DNA from: a bacterium
GTDB taxonomy: Bacteria; Patescibacteriota; Minisyncoccia; Phycocordibacterales; UBA5272
Assembly: GCA_031386485.1 (NCBI GenBank)
Contig: JANNCJ010000048.1
Span: 1 to 43,043 of the forward strand
Length of the DNA: 43,043 nt
Direction: 5' to 3'
How positions within the stretch are numbered: the stretch's first letter is position 1; every line of letters begins with the position of its first letter. Below are positions 24,602 through 29,522 of the stretch, piece by piece. The translations under genes and the position numbers were made by a program. Below the pieces are notes generated by a model. That model ran no database searches. It saw nothing but the letters and a program-made list of their open reading frames with translations, and had not been told where the DNA came from.

Positions 24602-24703
24602 CTAACCTCTAGATTTTATATGACTTCCTTTTTGAGAAATAATTTCAAAACTATTCTTATTTAAAATTTTTAGAACATGCTTTGTGCTAAGAAGTCTAGG
24701 CAT
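24602..24703 (-). pseudogene. truncated HicA (33 codons)
   Basis: MPRLLSTKHVLKILNKNSFEIISQKGSHIKSRG* has the HicA N-terminal half only. Its ATG overlaps the HicB-like stop codon (ATGCCTAG). Confidence 0.6.
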
Positions 24704-24920
24704 ATGCTATTTCGCTAGTAAATAACTCTGGGCTCACAATCTTCGAGAGATTATCAAGAATATTCTGTTCATCTTCGTAGTAGAGCGAGAGAGCTTCATT
24801 CAGATTCTCAATTGCCTCGTTTTTGGTTAAACCAAAAGACGAGATGCTGTTTGTAAGCGACTTAGAAACATAAAAGCCTCCCTCTTTCCAGACAATATTT
24901 ACACTATTTAACTTCTTCAT
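24696..24920 (-). CDS. HicB-like antitoxin (UPF0150 fold)
   Basis: VWKEGGFYVSKSL...GLTKNEAIENLNEAL pattern. Start placed at MKKLNS. Confidence 0.65.
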   Translation of the reverse strand: MKKLNSVNIVWKEGGFYVSKSLTNSISSFGLTKNEAIENLNEALSLYYEDEQNILDNLSKIVSPELFTSEIAYA

Positions 24921-24950
24921 ATTTATATGATACCACAAAATAATTAATTC

Positions 24951-25571
24951 TCAAATGACCTTATCTAGCTTAACCTTAATCTCATCCGCTACCTCAGCTA
25001 CACTCTTTTCACCATTTACATGGATAAATTTATAATTCGGATCTTCACTATACCACTCTATCACAGGCATAACGTCAGAGTCAAACCAATTCATTTTATT
25101 TTGTACATCGTCTTTACTTTGATCATCTTCTCTACCCCTCTCACTTAGTCTCTCTGTGGCCCATTTACGACCAACATCAATATAGACTACAGTTGTCTTG
25201 AAGTTATAAAATTCTATTGCGCTCGCGAGTGCGTGCAGCTCAGCTAACCTACGTGGTGCACCATCTAAAATAATATTAGTATTGTCACCAGCTATATCAA
25301 TAAATATATTTGCCCAATTCCAAACAGCTAAGAACTCCGGCATTAGCTTGCCAGAGTTAATTAACTCGGATGCAATCTTAGCGCTTCTATTGTCTCTCTC
25401 GATGAAATCTCGAAAACCTCCTCCAGTCGTGAGATGTTTAAAATCTTTTTCTATATAATTTTCTTTTATTAGCGCAGCTTGGGTGCCTTTGCCACTCCCA
25501 CTTCTACCCAGTAATATTATAAGATGGTTTTTAGTTTGGGTTGTATTCATGATGTTTGCTTCGCTTGACAT
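24951..25571 (-). CDS. adk: adenylate kinase
   Basis: P-loop LGRSGSGKGTQ, ILDGAPRR, RGREDD. The start may instead be the internal Met at 25550. Confidence 0.9.
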   Translation of the reverse strand: MSSEANIMNTTQTKNHLIILLGRSGSGKGTQAALIKENYIEKDFKHLTTGGGFRDFIERDNRSAKIASELINSGKLMPEFLAVWNWANIFIDIAGDNTNIILDGAPRRLAELHALASAIEFYNFKTTVVYIDVGRKWATERLSERGREDDQSKDDVQNKMNWFDSDVMPVIEWYSEDPNYKFIHVNGEKSVAEVADEIKVKLDKVI

Positions 25572-25712
25572 ATTATTATTATTAGACTATAATTATACCA
25601 TACTTGACCTTCGGGTTTCTTTTTAGAGAAATCTAAAAAGTTAATAAAAAGTCTATGCAAGAAAATCTTGCATATACTTTTTAAGTTTTATATATTCACT
25701 TTATTCTACTGT

Positions 25713-26627
25713 TCACATTTGATACTTGACTCTTCTCACATCGAAAATGCGCACTTGAGAAGTGATTGCAAAATTAACGATGCTAGAATCTTTATTTTTA
25801 AGTTTTATAATCAATTCATGTATATTCTTGTCTTTCTTTTGCACAGAGCTAAGCGGCACACCTATAAAAGTAAATTTATTTATCTTTTTTAATATGACTA
25901 CAGGCCTTAAAAAACTTTCACCTTTACCGTCTTGTTCATGGCCAATATTCACACCCATCTCTAACCACCAAACCTCTCTTTCGCTAAAATAAAAATCTTC
26001 TACGTCGTTATCTGTTCGTATTGAGGATATTTTTTTAAGATTATTCCACGCATCAAAATTTTTGTTTTTATAATTTGATATAGAAATGTATTCTTTTATA
26101 AAGTATATGTGAGTTTTAAGATTAAGAAGAGTGTTTATATTTAATTCAATTTTGCTAAGCTTGGAATACTGCTCGCTAAGATTGAGCAGGGCTTCTTTAG
26201 CCGTTAGCCACATAATTTCGCCTTCCACCATATCACCCTTTATTTCTTCTACAAACTCACAAAGAATACAAATTACTTCGTATTTTTTATACTGACCTTC
26301 TTTGTCGACGTCCTTGAATGCAATGACTTTACCAATGCTTCCAACTATCCGAATATCAATTCCCAATTCTTCCCTAACTTCTCTTTTGATGCACTCTTCT
26401 AGACTCTCATCAGACTCTAGACCTCCGCCAGGCAACAAAGTATTTTTCATCTTGATCAAGGCAATCTTACCCTGATTTATAATTATAGCTTTAACCGTTC
26501 TCCTTTCTTTATATACCTCATCATTCACCGCTACGGCAAACTTAGGCACCACATTATCAGGTCTCAGCACTTTAATCAACTTAACATCATCTTTATCCAT
26601 ATCTAAATTATACCATGAAACATTCAA
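25713..26627 (-). CDS. NUDIX hydrolase fused to a C-terminal MazF/PemK-like domain
   Basis: Perfect Nudix box GGLESDESLEECIKREVREELGI. The C-terminal EVWWLEMGVNIGHEQDGKGESFLRPVVIL...GVPLSS...SQVRIFDVRR resembles PemK/MazF toxins. Confidence 0.65.
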   Translation of the reverse strand: MNVSWYNLDMDKDDVKLIKVLRPDNVVPKFAVAVNDEVYKERRTVKAIIINQGKIALIKMKNTLLPGGGLESDESLEECIKREVREELGIDIRIVGSIGKVIAFKDVDKEGQYKKYEVICILCEFVEEIKGDMVEGEIMWLTAKEALLNLSEQYSKLSKIELNINTLLNLKTHIYFIKEYISISNYKNKNFDAWNNLKKISSIRTDNDVEDFYFSEREVWWLEMGVNIGHEQDGKGESFLRPVVILKKINKFTFIGVPLSSVQKKDKNIHELIIKLKNKDSSIVNFAITSQVRIFDVRRVKYQM

Positions 26628-26668
26628 ATATTACTTCTGTATTTTGTTTTCGTTTTAATTTTACATAC

Positions 26669-26697
26669 AAAAAACCTTTATTGCGTAAAGGTTTTTT
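26669..26697. terminator. bidirectional intrinsic terminator after secY
   Basis: aaaaaaccttta-ttgcg-taaaggtttttt: a 12-bp stem whose A/T runs supply a U-tract on either strand. Confidence 0.75.
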
Positions 26698-26717
26698 GTT
26701 TTGTGTTTGGTTTGGGA

Positions 26718-27980
26718 TTAATACTCCCTCATTGTCAGCTGAGCGTCGATCTTTTTCATAAGATCAATAATTACAGATATAGCAATTAGGAGCGATGTGC
26801 CACCAACTGATAGAGCTTGGACTCCGGTTAAGCCAGATAATATAATCGGAAGTAGCGCGACTGTGCCGAGGAATATGGCTCCCACTGTTGTTGTTCTCAT
26901 CAGCACATTACTAATATACTCAGTTGTTGCTTCGCCTGGTCTGTGCCCGGGTACAAAAGCGCCTGATTTTTGTAAATTTTCTGAAGTCTTAACTGGGTCA
27001 AAAGTAACCATCGTATAAAAGAATGTAAACATTACTATAAGAGCAAAATAAATTACTCCATATATCCAGCTATTGCCGATTATCATGGCTATCTTCTGGG
27101 CTATCAGTTGTAATGTGGCTGAGTCTGAGCTCTGCATGAGCTGGGCTGCCATCTGAGGAAAGGTCATGAGTGAGACAGCAAAAATAATAGGTATTACTCC
27201 CGCTAAGGTAAGGCGGAGCGGTAAGTATGATGTGGTCAGGCCTGTTGTCGTATACCCTCTTGATTGCTTAGCGTAAGTCACTTCTATCGGCCTCTCGGCC
27301 TCAGTCACTGCAACGATGCCCATTAGAACCAATATAAATGTTATAAATAGTGCTATATACATTGGAATTTGCGATGGGTCCACAGTGCCCATTATTGACC
27401 AGAGCTTAGCAGGGAGAGTTGCAACTATTCCTGAGAATATTATCAAAGAAATGCCGTTGCCGATACCCTTTTCATTAATTACTTCACCGAGCCACATCAT
27501 AAGCATTGACCCTGCAGTAATTATAATTATGTTTGTGGTAAACTCTGTCTTAGTCATGGCCTCTATCACACCCTGCTTAACAAAGAGCGTGAGGAGACCA
27601 ATTGCCTGTAGCACTGCAAGTGGTGGCGTCAACCATCTTGTATACTTGGCATACTTACGTCTACCAATCTCACCCTCTTCTTGCTGCATCTCTTTTAGCT
27701 TAGGGTAGAGCACAGCTACTAGCTGCATTATAATACTCGCAGTAATATATGGCTGTACTCCAAGCATAACAAATGACATTGAGGATAAGCCCCCACCCGA
27801 GAATATATTAAGCATGCCGAGGAATTGATTATCGCTTACAAATGAAGCTAGGTCCTTGCCGCTTACAGAAGGTATCGGTACTATAGATAGTATTCTAGTA
27901 ATTAATAATATTGCGAGCACAAAAAAGATTCTATTTCTTATGGCTGCATCAAGCATCACAGATTTTAAGTATTTAAACAT
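26718..27980 (-). CDS. secY: preprotein translocase subunit SecY
   Basis: 10-TM profile; LGVQPYITASIIMQL, GEVINEKGIGNGISLIIF. Confidence 0.95.
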   Translation of the reverse strand: MFKYLKSVMLDAAIRNRIFFVLAILLITRILSIVPIPSVSGKDLASFVSDNQFLGMLNIFSGGGLSSMSFVMLGVQPYITASIIMQLVAVLYPKLKEMQQEEGEIGRRKYAKYTRWLTPPLAVLQAIGLLTLFVKQGVIEAMTKTEFTTNIIIITAGSMLMMWLGEVINEKGIGNGISLIIFSGIVATLPAKLWSIMGTVDPSQIPMYIALFITFILVLMGIVAVTEAERPIEVTYAKQSRGYTTTGLTTSYLPLRLTLAGVIPIIFAVSLMTFPQMAAQLMQSSDSATLQLIAQKIAMIIGNSWIYGVIYFALIVMFTFFYTMVTFDPVKTSENLQKSGAFVPGHRPGEATTEYISNVLMRTTTVGAIFLGTVALLPIILSGLTGVQALSVGGTSLLIAISVIIDLMKKIDAQLTMREY

Positions 27981-28216: not shown

Positions 28217-28954
28217 TTATTTTTTTAAGCTCTCGTAAATCTCTACAAATCTGTTAATGCTGCTGGTAATAATAATATAGTCTTTGTTATAATACCCATA
28301 TACAAAAGCTCCACTCTCTCCATCAGCAACTCTCATATTAATATTCTTTATACTAACATCATTAAAAGTGCTTAAATTAAAATACTTAAATTTATTCTTG
28401 GCTAAGCCTTTAAAGACATTTTCGTCTTCTAATATTGCTTGGTACAAATTGTCAAAATTACTAATGCGAATTACGATAGAGTCGTCTGTGGATGTGGCCT
28501 CGCTAGTGTAGCTAAAAAGCTTCTTACTTATGGGGTCATTCCAGACGTCTAGCACAGTATACTTTGGAGCTTCTACTTTTACTTCTTCTATTATGACTGG
28601 CTTTTTATAAACTAAGAAATAGTAAGCTGCAGCCCCGCATATAAGAAGCAAAAAGATTGCTAATCCGGCTATTACTATTAAGCGTTTTCTCTTTATAACA
28701 TTATCAGCTTCGAATGTGTTGCCGCTGGTATCCATTTGACCGCTTAAGATCTTAATCTTATTAATATTGTCTTTACGAATATTATCATAGACATCGCTCT
28801 CCATAGTATGTATCACTGGTATATCTCCTGACTTTTTGGTCAGCATGTGCAGCCTTTCTTCTTCCCTCTTTTCTTGCTCTAACTTCTCTTCGAGGCTAGG
28901 CTCTTCACCAATTGTAGCGTCATTAATATTTATAATTTTATCTTTATTGTCCAT
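28217..28954 (-). CDS. hypothetical single-pass membrane protein
   Basis: Acidic N-terminus, TM helix LIVIAGLAIFLLLICGAAAYYFLVY. Overlaps the NYN gene by 11 nt. Confidence 0.5.
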   Translation of the reverse strand: MDNKDKIININDATIGEEPSLEEKLEQEKREEERLHMLTKKSGDIPVIHTMESDVYDNIRKDNINKIKILSGQMDTSGNTFEADNVIKRKRLIVIAGLAIFLLLICGAAAYYFLVYKKPVIIEEVKVEAPKYTVLDVWNDPISKKLFSYTSEATSTDDSIVIRISNFDNLYQAILEDENVFKGLAKNKFKYFNLSTFNDVSIKNINMRVADGESGAFVYGYYNKDYIIITSSINRFVEIYESLKK

Positions 28955-29522
28955 TTTCTAATTCTACTACATTTACAGATTTTTTGTAAGGTCTTTTTGC
29001 AGGTTTACGGGTTAACTTACTTATTAATAGATATTTCTTAGGGTCGTCATCAAGGTCAAGGAAGGCTTCAGTGCTCTCCTTAAGCTTACTAGACGTCGAC
29101 CTACCAAATGAAACTACTTCAACTTGTACTCCTAGACTTTTAAGCTGCTCAACGAGCGGCACGAAGTCACCATCTCCGGTAGCTAAGACTATAGTGTCCA
29201 CTTTACTTGCAAGTCTAAGAGCGTCAACTGTGATGCCAACATCCCAGTCTGCTTTTTTGTTACCACCATGAAATATCTGCAGGTCTTTACTCTTCGTTTC
29301 TATCCCCATTTTTAAAAGAGCGTCGAAAAACTGAGCCTCGTCCTGAGCTTCTGTTGTTATGAGATAGGCTATTGCTCTTACTAACTTTCTTTCTCCTACT
29401 GCGGAGTCGAGTACGTTGCTAAAATTGACTCTTGAGTTATAGATGTTACGTGCACTGTGATATAGATTTTGCGTATCTATTAAGACCGCCACTCTTTGTG
29501 AGGTATGTTGTATTACTGACAT
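28944..29522 (-). CDS. NYN-domain (LabA/DUF88-like) protein
   Basis: VAVLIDTQNLYHSARN ... DWDVGITVDAL ... IVLATGDGDFVPLVEQLK acidic-residue pattern of NYN ribonuclease-like domains. Confidence 0.8.
   Translation of the reverse strand: MSVIQHTSQRVAVLIDTQNLYHSARNIYNSRVNFSNVLDSAVGERKLVRAIAYLITTEAQDEAQFFDALLKMGIETKSKDLQIFHGGNKKADWDVGITVDALRLASKVDTIVLATGDGDFVPLVEQLKSLGVQVEVVSFGRSTSSKLKESTEAFLDLDDDPKKYLLISKLTRKPAKRPYKKSVNVVELENGQ

What the first reader, a model, noticed from the sequence alone, without database searches (positions are those of the whole stretch)
25713..26627. NUDIX hydrolase fused to a MazF/PemK-like domain, inserted between secY and adk
The N-terminal ~150 aa carry a perfect Nudix box (G-x5-E-x7-REVREELGI). 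The C-terminal ~110 aa (EVWWLEMGVNIGHEQDGKGESFLRPVVILKK...IGVPLSS...ITSQVRIFDVRRV) look like the SH3-like barrel of PemK/MazF endoribonuclease toxins. The gene has its own terminators on both sides (26669-26697 and a tgcaaga-aaa-tcttgca hairpin near 25650). It interrupts the secY-adk linkage, which is usually contiguous. No separate antitoxin ORF is adjacent. A covalently attached NUDIX domain could act as a cis-antitoxin, as a nucleotide- or alarmone-sensing switch, or as an RNA 5'-end/cap processing partner. I am not aware of this fusion having been characterised.
Basis: partly seen in the sequence, partly recalled or inferred. Interest (0 to 1): 0.6.

Follow-up and report, generated by a model that had tools for sequence, protein, structure and literature searches.

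The report
Nudix–MazF fusion with partner small RNA
A tiny uncultured bacterium carries a real but rare gene that joins a Nudix hydrolase to a MazF-type RNA-cutting toxin; the toxin half has lost its last helix, and an overlooked small RNA gene facing it, not the Nudix half, is the likely antidote.

Summary
One ORF, best read as 25713-26600 (-), 295 aa, encodes a Nudix domain with a perfect Nudix box joined without a linker to a MazF/PemK domain. Both domains pass Pfam's cut-offs, both folds are supported, and two other metagenome contigs carry the same junction.

1. The MazF domain is cut short. A TGA and a TAA remove the roughly 20-aa C-terminal helix that relatives keep. The decayed codons are still readable up to the ancestral stop.
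2. A conserved small RNA gene of about 90 nt faces the gene. It has a perfect sigma-70 promoter and three hairpins, and its terminator overlaps the ancestral MazF stop. This scan has already found such an RNA beside this antitoxin-less "long MazF" family on other DNA. I confirmed it here and at 37 of 38 related places.
3. In relatives the long-MazF module is multi-copy and fused in frame to many unrelated enzymes: TGT, malic enzyme, GNAT, a C39-like peptidase, VOC and others.

The Nudix half is therefore most likely a captured host gene, not a cis-antitoxin. This copy looks like a decaying toxin with its RNA partner and Nudix half intact. The fusion is rare (three members) and I found no description of it. 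Its function is untested.

The parts
26667..26699 (.). Palindromic hairpin (14-nt arms, 100% complementary) between the secY stop and the cassette; bidirectional terminator-like site, most simply the secY terminator
   Evidence: I7
26607..26615 (-). TGgTATAAT extended -10 box 6 nt before ATG 26600; predicts a leaderless mRNA (inferred)
   Evidence: L001 has TGtTATAAT-N6-ATG at the same place
25713..26600 (-).
26091..26504 (-). Nudix hydrolase domain plus the helical C-terminal extension typical of its stand-alone relatives (about aa 33-170); Nudix box at 26358-26426
   Evidence: (31% identity over 163 aa to the stand-alone 180-aa Nudix P0139)
25716..26069 (-). 'Long' MazF/PemK module (aa 178-295): N-terminal NFDAWN..KK helix, EREVWW strand, G-N-G-E-DGK loop, catalytic-type Arg (RPV, R232) and Ser (PLSS, S251); ends before the C-terminal helix
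25653..25715 (-). Decayed 3' end of the MazF reading frame: TGA (25713-15, Gly in homologues), TVE, TAA (25701-03, Glu in homologues), SEYIKLKKYMQDFLA, ancestral TAG (25653-55)
   Evidence: (PF02452 match reaches 106/109 and 30.2 bits when read through '1 TGA, 1 TAA')
25565..25593 (+). Perfect sigma-70 consensus TTGACA-17-TATAAT facing the fusion gene; promoter of the small RNA
   Evidence: 12 of 12; conserved in L001 and L002
25600..25688 (+). Candidate small RNA (~90 nt): HP1 GACC-UUCG-GGUU (25606-17), HP2 CUUUUUAGA-GAAA-UCUAAAAAG (25619-40), HP3/terminator (25645-83) overlapping the ancestral MazF stop
   Evidence: 32 pairs, 5 with compensatory change; MFE -28 kcal/mol, z -6.6; no Rfam match

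Best explanation
A cassette of about 1.05 kb sits between secY and adk. It holds (a) a gene, probably leaderless and self-promoted, for a Nudix hydrolase joined end to end with a 'long', solitary-type MazF/PemK endoribonuclease, and (b) a convergent structured small RNA gene of about 90 nt whose terminator overlaps the end of the MazF frame.

Shown here:
- both domains and both folds;
- the conserved fusion junction;
- the small RNA's conservation and compensatory base changes;
- its presence beside nearly all relatives of this MazF subfamily;
- the loss of the MazF C-terminal helix through two nonsense codons.

Inferred:
- The MazF module is an RNase toxin held in check by the small RNA rather than by a protein or by the Nudix domain.
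- The fusion arose when a MazF+sRNA cassette landed directly behind an ordinary chromosomal Nudix gene and the stop codon between them was lost. The composite then persisted and moved as a unit.
- The two domains act largely independently.
- In this genome the toxin half is inactivated or weakened, while the Nudix half and the RNA are intact. That is the usual end state of a decaying toxin-antitoxin locus.
For: Domains and folds:
- Pfam matches over the cut-off for both domains.
- Foldseek places the intact homologue's C-terminal domain on S. aureus, B. subtilis and E. coli MazF (TM by target 0.70-0.78). It places the window's N-terminal domain on Nudix enzymes.
- A profile alignment puts the family's RPV Arg on B. 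subtilis MazF R25 and the first Ser of PLSS on T48.

Rarity and junction:
- In 1.84 billion representative proteins, only P0001 and P0003 (P0002 is not listed separately) have this domain order.
- The Nudix C-terminus abuts the MazF N-terminus with no linker.

Truncation:
- Homologues continue ...YQLGTVKEVEFMKIKKSIQDILV. The window reads ...YQM*TVE*SEYIKLKKYMQDFLA*.
- The six-frame PF02452 match extends to position 106 of 109 through 1 TGA and 1 TAA.
- The genome uses the standard code.
- About 138 of the 148 MazF-containing proteins among the best 150 hits keep the helix.

Small RNA:
- Perfect promoter.
- By eye about 80-85% nucleotide identity among the three fusion loci, against 49-68% protein identity.
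- 5 compensatory pairs and z = -6.6.
- The same convergent promoter-plus-hairpin architecture occurs at 21 of 38 long-MazF places by a strict pattern, and at 16 of the other 17 by a relaxed one.
- The best non-self hit of model R1 lies convergent on the 3' end of a MazF gene in G012.

Promiscuous fusion:
- The MazF module is fused in frame to TGT (twice), malic enzyme, GNAT, C39-like peptidase, VOC and DUF1653.
- It is also fused to YdjC, a cytidylyltransferase, an unassigned 200-aa N-terminal region, and Nudix in the reverse order.

Neighbouring locus: next door, an intact HicB-like gene sits beside a HicA cut to 33 codons.
Against: - No expression or activity data exist for the protein or the RNA. 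The antitoxin role of the RNA rests on association alone.
- Nudix and long MazF were joined at least twice independently, once in each order and with different Nudix subfamilies. Each fusion survived to 31-49% identity. That hints at some benefit of the pairing.
- The decayed tail is no more diverged than the rest of the protein. The truncation may therefore be recent, polymorphic or tolerated.
- AlphaFold confidence is moderate (mean pLDDT 65-69), and the arrangement between domains is not interpretable.
Confidence: 0.6

Rival explanations
1. The Nudix domain is functionally coupled to the RNase or its RNA partner. For example, it could be an RppH/NudC-like 5'-pyrophosphohydrolase or decapping enzyme acting on the 5' end of the small RNA (a primary transcript with about 6 unpaired 5' nucleotides) or on MazF substrates. 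The fusion would then be a three-part toxin / RNA-antitoxin / RNA-end-processing switch.
For: - Two independent Nudix/long-MazF fusions exist, in opposite orders, and both are long-lived.
- The Nudix box is intact in the window and in P0002.
- Sub-threshold Nudt16-like (RNA decapping) hits appear in all Nudix partners.
- RppH is among the structural matches.
Against: - The Nudt16-like and RppH matches are no better than matches to MutT, Ap4A or ADP-ribose enzymes, so the substrate cannot be told.
- The same MazF module is fused to enzymes unrelated to RNA ends, such as malic enzyme, VOC, YdjC, GNAT and a peptidase.
- None of the stand-alone long-MazF loci examined has a Nudix neighbour.
Confidence: 0.2
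2. One reading: the Nudix domain is a covalently attached cis-antitoxin or nucleotide-sensing switch that replaces a missing antitoxin.
For: No protein antitoxin gene is adjacent in any of the three fusion loci. Single-chain toxin-antitoxins do exist (own knowledge: EzeT, CapRel).
Against: - Stand-alone members lack both a protein antitoxin and a Nudix domain, yet they are common and multi-copy.
- The fusion loci retain the family's conserved small RNA.
- Fusion partners are highly variable.
Confidence: 0.06
3. The truncated MazF is still functional (an attenuated or adapted RNase), or the two stops are assembly or minor-variant artefacts, so the locus is a working module rather than a decaying one.
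For: - The catalytic-type Arg and Ser and the whole beta-barrel are kept.
- The Pfam match still passes the cut-off.
- The tail codons are barely diverged.
- The promoter, the small RNA and the Nudix box are all intact.
Against: - There are two independent nonsense substitutions, not one.
- The helix is present in roughly 93% of family hits and in the Pfam model.
- In the truncated model the first MazF strand region (aa 192-226) drops below pLDDT 50. The first-strand block (aa 201-210) scores about 90 in the intact homologue. This is only a weak hint.
- A second toxin (HicA) is truncated 1 kb away.
Confidence: 0.2
4. The cassette is an anti-phage, abortive-infection-type defence gene in which Nudix is a second effector or sensor.
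For: - The Nudix half matches PADLOC's candidate single-gene system PDC-S07 (E about 1e-10).
- Some stand-alone long-MazF loci sit beside Bro-N or ORF6N phage-type genes.
- MazF-type toxins can act in phage exclusion (general knowledge).
Against: - The PADLOC hit covers only the generic Nudix fold.
- No MazF-side defence model matched.
- No relatives were found in viral contigs.
- No defence island surrounds the locus.
Confidence: 0.12

Closest known systems
MazF / PemK / Kid / EndoA endoribonuclease toxins of type II toxin-antitoxin systems (PF02452)
   Same: Same fold by prediction (Foldseek TM 0.70-0.78 for the intact homologue). It passes the Pfam cut-off. The Arg and Ser/Thr that align with B. 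subtilis MazF R25 and T48 are conserved.
   Different: - No MazE/PemI-type protein antitoxin.
- An extra N-terminal helix (NFDAWN..KK) and a 5-residue insertion in the loop before the RPV Arg (called the beta1-beta2 loop from own knowledge).
- Fused to a Nudix enzyme.
- This copy lacks the C-terminal helix.
- Paired with a convergent small RNA.
Nudix hydrolases (PF00293; MutT, RppH, NudC, ADP-ribose and Ap4A pyrophosphatases)
   Same: Perfect Nudix box, Pfam match at 52.8 bits, predicted Nudix fold. The closest relative is a stand-alone 180-aa Nudix (P0139, 31% identity) that shares the helical C-terminal extension.
   Different: No equivalog-level match to any characterised subfamily, so the substrate is unknown. 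Joined directly to an RNase toxin domain.
Long MazF + convergent small RNA cassettes noted repeatedly by this scan on other DNA (e.g. e1-5157673, e1-798740, e1-3786934)
   Same: Same MazF subfamily. Same convergent consensus promoter. A 5' tetraloop hairpin followed by a second hairpin. The terminator overlaps the toxin's stop codon. Confirmed here on 37 of 38 places.
   Different: Here the toxin carries an N-terminal Nudix domain and its own promoter, the RNA is the three-hairpin subtype, and the toxin frame is truncated.
Type III (ToxIN, CptIN, TenpIN, AbiQ) and type I convergent (txpA/RatA-like) toxin-antitoxin systems
   Same: A protein RNase toxin with an RNA partner (type III). A convergent RNA overlapping the toxin gene's 3' end (type I).
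   Different: No tandem repeat array upstream on the same strand as in type III. The toxin is not a small membrane peptide as in type I. Neither RNA-protein binding nor antisense action has been tested.
Single-chain fused toxin-antitoxins (EzeT, CapRel SJ46; from own knowledge)
   Same: A toxin domain covalently linked to another domain in one polypeptide, with no separate protein antitoxin.
   Different: No evidence that the Nudix domain neutralises MazF. Partner domains of this MazF module vary widely.

Membership tests
Nudix hydrolase superfamily (PF00293) | Nudix box GX5EX7REUXEEXGU | tested here: met
   G59-GLESD-E65-SLEECIK-R73EVREELGI81, read from the translation
Nudix hydrolase superfamily (PF00293) | Profile match above the curated cut-off, and an alpha/beta/alpha Nudix fold | tested here: met
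   52.8 bits against 21.1. In the model the domain scores pLDDT 70-90. Foldseek gives 448 PDB matches at E<=1e-3, and all 50 listed are Nudix enzymes.
Nudix hydrolase superfamily (PF00293) | Assignable substrate class (equivalog-level family) | tested here: not met
   All NCBIfam equivalog hits fall far below their cut-offs (best 25.8 bits against 95)
MazF/PemK toxin (PF02452) | Profile match above the curated cut-off | tested here: met
   25.0 bits against 23.1 for the ORF as it stands; 30.2 bits when read through the two stops
MazF/PemK toxin (PF02452) | SH3-like barrel fold of MazF/Kid | tested here: met
   Intact homologue P0002: the MazF part scores pLDDT 80-93, and the top Foldseek hits are MazF of S. 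aureus, B. subtilis and E. coli, with TM by target 0.70-0.78
MazF/PemK toxin (PF02452) | Catalytic Arg and Ser/Thr (B. subtilis R25/T48; E. coli R29/T52) | tested here: met
   The profile alignment places RPV on R25-P-V and the first Ser of PLSS on T48. R232 is invariant in the family alignment.
MazF/PemK toxin (PF02452) | Complete domain including the C-terminal alpha-helix | tested here: not met
   The ORF ends at profile position 86 of 109. TGA and TAA interrupt the helix codons.
Type II MazEF/PemIK toxin-antitoxin system | Adjacent gene for a protein antitoxin (MazE/PemI, AbrB or RHH type) | tested here: not met
   No such ORF is next to the gene here or in L001, L002 and the stand-alone loci
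Type III toxin-antitoxin (ToxIN-like) | Tandem-repeat RNA antitoxin array upstream of, and co-transcribed with, the toxin | tested here: not met
   The RNA is a single convergent unit downstream. No tandem repeats in 25300-27000.
Long MazF + convergent sRNA cassette (this scan's recurrent family) | Long-MazF N-terminal motif, plus a convergent promoter followed by a tetraloop hairpin and a second hairpin directly after the toxin's 3' end | tested here: met
Long MazF + convergent sRNA cassette (this scan's recurrent family) | The RNA neutralises the toxin | not testable with these tools
   Association only. Needs co-expression and binding assays.

The most novel reading that the evidence does not exclude
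The Nudix domain is an RNA 5'-end pyrophosphohydrolase or decapping enzyme. It would act on the 5' end of the convergent small RNA, the putative RNA antitoxin, and so set that RNA's lifetime. A nucleotide-hydrolysing domain would then decide when the MazF RNase is released. This would be a three-component toxin / RNA-antitoxin / RNA-end-processing switch in one cassette.
Probability: 0.12. Interest if true: 0.75.

Novelty: new variant of a known kind. Interest (0 to 1): 0.45.

Why it matters
The fusion itself is a rare, undescribed domain architecture of two very well-known families. Three further points have wider value.

- It is another, independent instance of a MazF subfamily that lacks a protein antitoxin and instead travels with a conserved small RNA. 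This instance has a perfect promoter and compensatory base changes. If the RNA is the antidote, this is a way of controlling MazF that I did not find described.
- In these tiny genomes the MazF module is multi-copy and repeatedly ends up fused in frame to housekeeping enzymes. In some cases the reading frame runs straight through the antisense RNA gene. This is a caution against reading every toxin-enzyme fusion as a regulatory design. It is also a possible model for how selfish cassettes lodge behind host genes.
- The locus shows a toxin decaying while its partners persist, next to a second example (HicA/HicB).

Tried and rejected
- TGA recoding (code 25, Gly): rejected. Table 11 gives 401 ORFs of at least 200 aa and about 80% coding. 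secY, adk and map are intact, and a TAA follows four codons later anyway.
- More fusion members: pattern scans of genome, metagenome and viral contig collections found only stand-alone MazF relatives or nothing.
- Flanking target-site duplications around the cassette: none beyond chance-size repeats.
- A general covariance model for the small RNA: MAFFT could not keep the tetraloops in register. I used pattern-and-fold scans instead. A narrow model built from the three fusion loci (R1) finds only this locus strongly.
- Domain-domain geometry from AlphaFold: pTM is 0.44-0.51, too low to interpret.
- Nudix subfamily or substrate: sequence and fold matches are non-specific.
- Literature: no paper pairs Nudix with MazF as a fusion, and none describes MazF in Patescibacteria in this sense.
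- PADLOC: only a generic Nudix candidate (PDC-S07) matched.
Full report
**1. The observation**

An open frame runs 25713..26627 on the minus strand, 304 aa from a TTG. The database gene call (P0001) and the sequence favour ATG 26600, giving 295 aa. A TGgTATAAT extended -10 box lies at 26615-26607, six bases before that ATG. The homologue in L001 has TGtTATAAT-N6-ATG at the same place. This suggests a self-promoted, leaderless mRNA, which is an inference.

The Nudix box G59-x5-E-x7-REVREELGI81 is perfect. Pfam gives NUDIX 52.8 bits (cut-off 21.1) for aa 42-152 of the 304-aa frame. It gives PemK_toxin 25.0 bits (cut-off 23.1) for aa 217-300, covering only profile positions 3-86 of 109. NCBIfam and PDB sequence searches hit only generic Nudix enzymes, far below any equivalog cut-off.

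Neighbours on the same strand are secY (26718-27980), adk (24951-25571), an 80-aa HicB-like ORF and map.

**2. A real fusion, and a rare one**

The word-indexed search of 5.8 billion proteins found only two other proteins with the same architecture. P0002 is 311 aa, 49% identical, and carries both Pfam domains. P0003 is cut off by its contig end but still begins ...RECKEE, which is the Nudix box. Three independent assemblies with the same junction exclude a frameshift or mis-join.

An exhaustive profile search of 1.84 billion representative proteins found only three hits at E <= 1e-30. Two are the fusion clusters P0001 and P0003. The third, P0011, is a stand-alone MazF. Pattern scans of one genome per species, of JGI metagenomes and of viral contigs added no further member.

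The three members sit in different neighbourhoods: secY/adk here, a penicillin-binding-protein-like gene (my reading of the translation) and a Mur ligase in L001, and exonuclease III in L002. None of 40 relatives from the same genus, family or order has the fusion. The fused gene is therefore patchy, and probably moves as a unit.

**3. Folds and catalytic residues**

With a 31-row alignment, the intact homologue P0002 modelled at mean pLDDT 65, with the MazF part at 80-93. Its best PDB matches are MazF of S. aureus, B. subtilis (EndoA/YdcE) and E. coli, plus MoxT and Kid, with probability 1.0 and TM by target 0.70-0.78.

The window's own protein modelled at mean pLDDT 69, with the Nudix part at 70-90. 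Its best matches are Nudix enzymes of many specificities: MutT-like, Ap4A, YmfB, ADP-ribose, RppH and plant-pathogen decapping effectors. The fold is confirmed but the substrate is not.

A profile of the family aligned to B. subtilis MazF puts the invariant RPV arginine on R25 and the first serine of PLSS on T48. It also shows a 5-residue insertion (GK-x-x-F) in the loop just before that arginine; calling it the beta1-beta2 loop rests on my own knowledge of MazF structures (invariant columns).

**4.

P0002 and P0003 continue ...RRIKYQLGTVKEVEFMKIKKSIQDILV. The window's protein stops at ...RRVKYQM. Translating on in frame gives M*TVE*SEYIKLKKYMQDFLA*. A TGA stands where the homologues have Gly, a TAA where they have Glu, and the ancestral stop is at 25653-55.

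The six-frame Pfam search of the genome reads through "1 TGA, 1 TAA". It then reaches profile position 106 of 109 with a higher score, 30.2 bits. The profile of the three fusions matches positions 2-310 the same way.

The genome uses the standard code. Under table 11 there are 401 ORFs of at least 200 aa, with stops TAA 263, TAG 102 and TGA 36, and about 80% coding. Even with TGA read as Gly, the TAA follows four codons later.

The lost segment aligns with the C-terminal helix of B. subtilis MazF. About 138 of the 148 MazF-containing proteins among the best 150 hits keep it. In the truncated model the first MazF strand region (aa 192-226) falls below pLDDT 50. The first-strand block (aa 201-210) scores about 90 in the intact homologue. 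That is only a hint.

**5.

The plus strand carries a perfect TTGACA-17-TATAAT at 25565-25593, facing the fusion gene. Notes from earlier sessions of this scan say that antitoxin-less long MazF genes are always followed by a small convergent RNA gene. I treated these as leads and tested them.

Among the window, L001 and L002, the promoter and about 90 nt downstream are by eye about 80-85% identical at the nucleotide level. The proteins are 49-68% identical. The three sequences fold into the same three hairpins:
- HP1 GACC-UUCG-GGUU, which becomes GGCU-UUCG-AGCU in the other two loci;
- HP2 CUUUUUAGA-GAAA-UCUAAAAAG;
- HP3, a long terminator.

There are 32 predicted pairs, 5 of them with compensatory changes. 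The window's RNA folds at -28 kcal/mol, z = -6.6 against shuffles. No Rfam family matches it, and it is single-copy in this genome.

It is built from the last codons of the ancestral MazF frame (MQDFLA*) and serves both strands.

Another 16 of the remaining 17 have a promoter with at least 10 of 12 matches, followed by a tetraloop hairpin and a GC-rich second hairpin. Only L010/L011 lack it.

The best non-self hit of a narrow covariance model built from the three fusion loci is in G012, convergent on the 3' end of a MazF gene.

The conserved "C-terminal tail peptide" I first saw in longer family members (..SSEPEG....PPYGGNSQAPYG..) is the reverse complement of this RNA gene read as protein.

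**6. The MazF module is promiscuous**

The stand-alone form is about 128-135 aa with an N-terminal NFDAWN..KK helix. It dominates the profile search, where 1,255 proteins reach E <= 1e-10, a few of them Nudix-only proteins. In 40 relatives with genomes of 0.5-1 Mb it is often multi-copy, with up to 12 profile matches per genome (a few of these are Nudix-only).

It is fused in frame to many partners:
- tRNA-guanine transglycosylase (twice), malic enzyme, a GNAT acetyltransferase, a C39-like peptidase, a VOC/glyoxalase domain and DUF1653;
- YdjC, a cytidylyltransferase and an unassigned 200-aa N-terminal domain;
- Nudix in the reverse order (P0036, P0072).

When MazF is the N-terminal partner, the frame runs through the antisense RNA gene into the next gene.

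P0036 and P0072 are homologous to each other over their whole length (31% identity). Their Nudix domain shares only the Nudix-box region with the window's. The window's Nudix domain instead belongs with a stand-alone 180-aa Nudix (P0139, 31% over 163 aa, including the helical C-terminal extension). Homologues of that Nudix are ordinary separate genes in relatives.

In the fusion, the Nudix C-terminus abuts the first residues of the MazF module with no linker. Earlier first-reader notes describe the same MazF gene starting 4-5 nt after unrelated host genes; I did not test these.

The simplest reading is that a MazF+sRNA cassette landed directly behind a Nudix gene and the stop codon between them was lost.

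**7. Genomic position**

secY and adk are adjacent in about 9 of 21 relatives examined. In the others the junction holds other genes, which I identified by eye from the translations: cytidylate-kinase-like, guanylate kinase, membrane or secreted proteins, and rodA-type. Or secY is elsewhere. The junction is a variable spot in this lineage, and only this genome has a MazF cassette there.

Stand-alone long-MazF genes also sit inside ribosomal-protein operons in three loci representing two distinct placements. One is between rplB and rpsS in L007 (genes read from the translations). The other is between rpsH and rplF in L010/L011.

**8. Mechanism**

Shown: the domains, the folds, the conserved junction, the truncation, and the conserved structured RNA with its promoter.

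Inferred:
- The MazF module is an RNase toxin restrained by the RNA. Whether this works by binding or by 3' antisense overlap is open.
- The Nudix domain is a catalytically competent but independent passenger.
- This copy's toxin is disabled or weakened, while the RNA and the Nudix half persist.

The neighbouring locus shows the same pattern. An intact HicB-like gene is followed by a HicA frame cut to 33 codons, matching HicA_toxin positions 2-24 of 58 at E = 3e-4.

Rivals:
- The Nudix domain processes the RNA's 5' end or the toxin's substrates. This is supported only by the two independent, long-lived Nudix pairings.
- The Nudix domain is a cis-antitoxin. This is unnecessary given the RNA, and is contradicted by the variety of partners.
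- The truncated protein still works, or the stops are not fixed.
- The cassette has a defence role. The PADLOC hit is to the generic Nudix candidate PDC-S07 only.

**9. Novelty**

I found no paper describing a Nudix-MazF fusion or this MazF/small-RNA pairing in the library searched. The MazF/small-RNA pairing has, however, been found many times by this scan on other DNA, so it is not new to the scan.

New here:
- the Nudix-bearing variant with its own promoter;
- the truncation;
- the breadth of in-frame fusions of this module;
- the explanation of the family's "tail" as an RNA gene read backwards.

Noticed in passing
window 24602-24938 (-): An intact 80-aa HicB-like ORF (DUF7387, E 9e-6, below the cut-off) overlaps the start of a HicA frame that stops after 33 codons (MPRLLSTKHVLKILNKNSFEIISQKGSHIKSRG*; HicA_toxin positions 2-24 of 58, E 3e-4). 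This is a second truncated toxin with its antitoxin kept, between adk and map.
   Followed up: partly
L027 596-2386 (-), L029 5437-7206 (+) and 8812-10578 (+), L028 1397-2551 (-), L031 1494-2603 (-), L033 1287-2141 (+), L034 1729-2478 (+): In relatives the long-MazF module is fused in frame to tRNA-guanine transglycosylase (twice), malic enzyme, a C39-like peptidase, a GNAT, a VOC/glyoxalase domain and DUF1653. When MazF is N-terminal, the open frame runs through the antisense small-RNA gene.
   Followed up: partly
L007 459-842; L010/L011 2501-2890: Stand-alone long-MazF genes are inserted inside ribosomal-protein operons (between rplB and rpsS; between rpsH and rplF, together with a 532-aa unknown gene). 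Including the window's secY-adk site, that makes three distinct placements (four loci) in or beside the ribosomal-protein/secY gene cluster among roughly ten contexts examined. This is more than the small share of a genome that this cluster should occupy (my estimate).
   Followed up: no
window 25586-25600: The small RNA's -10 box lies in the palindromic TATAATTATA. On the minus strand this gives TGgTATAAT (25600-25592), about 20 nt before the adk ATG, so it is a possible adk promoter overlapping the small-RNA promoter back to back. This arrangement is not conserved in L001 or L002.
   Followed up: no
secY-adk junction in L048, L053, L056, L057 and upstream of adk in L037, L039, L040, L042, L045-L047: The secY-adk junction is variable in this order. 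Judged by eye from the translations, some relatives hold a cytidylate-kinase-like gene (on either strand), a guanylate kinase, membrane or secreted proteins or rodA there, and G033 has two tandem adk copies.
   Followed up: partly
L005 2733-3457: What looks by eye like a HEPN / nucleotidyltransferase toxin-antitoxin pair lies about 450 bp downstream of the stand-alone long-MazF gene in a Nomurabacteria contig.
   Followed up: no
window 28944-29522 (-): A NYN-domain (LabA-like RNase) gene and a 245-aa gene with no Pfam match lie upstream of secY, where rplO would be expected.
   Followed up: no
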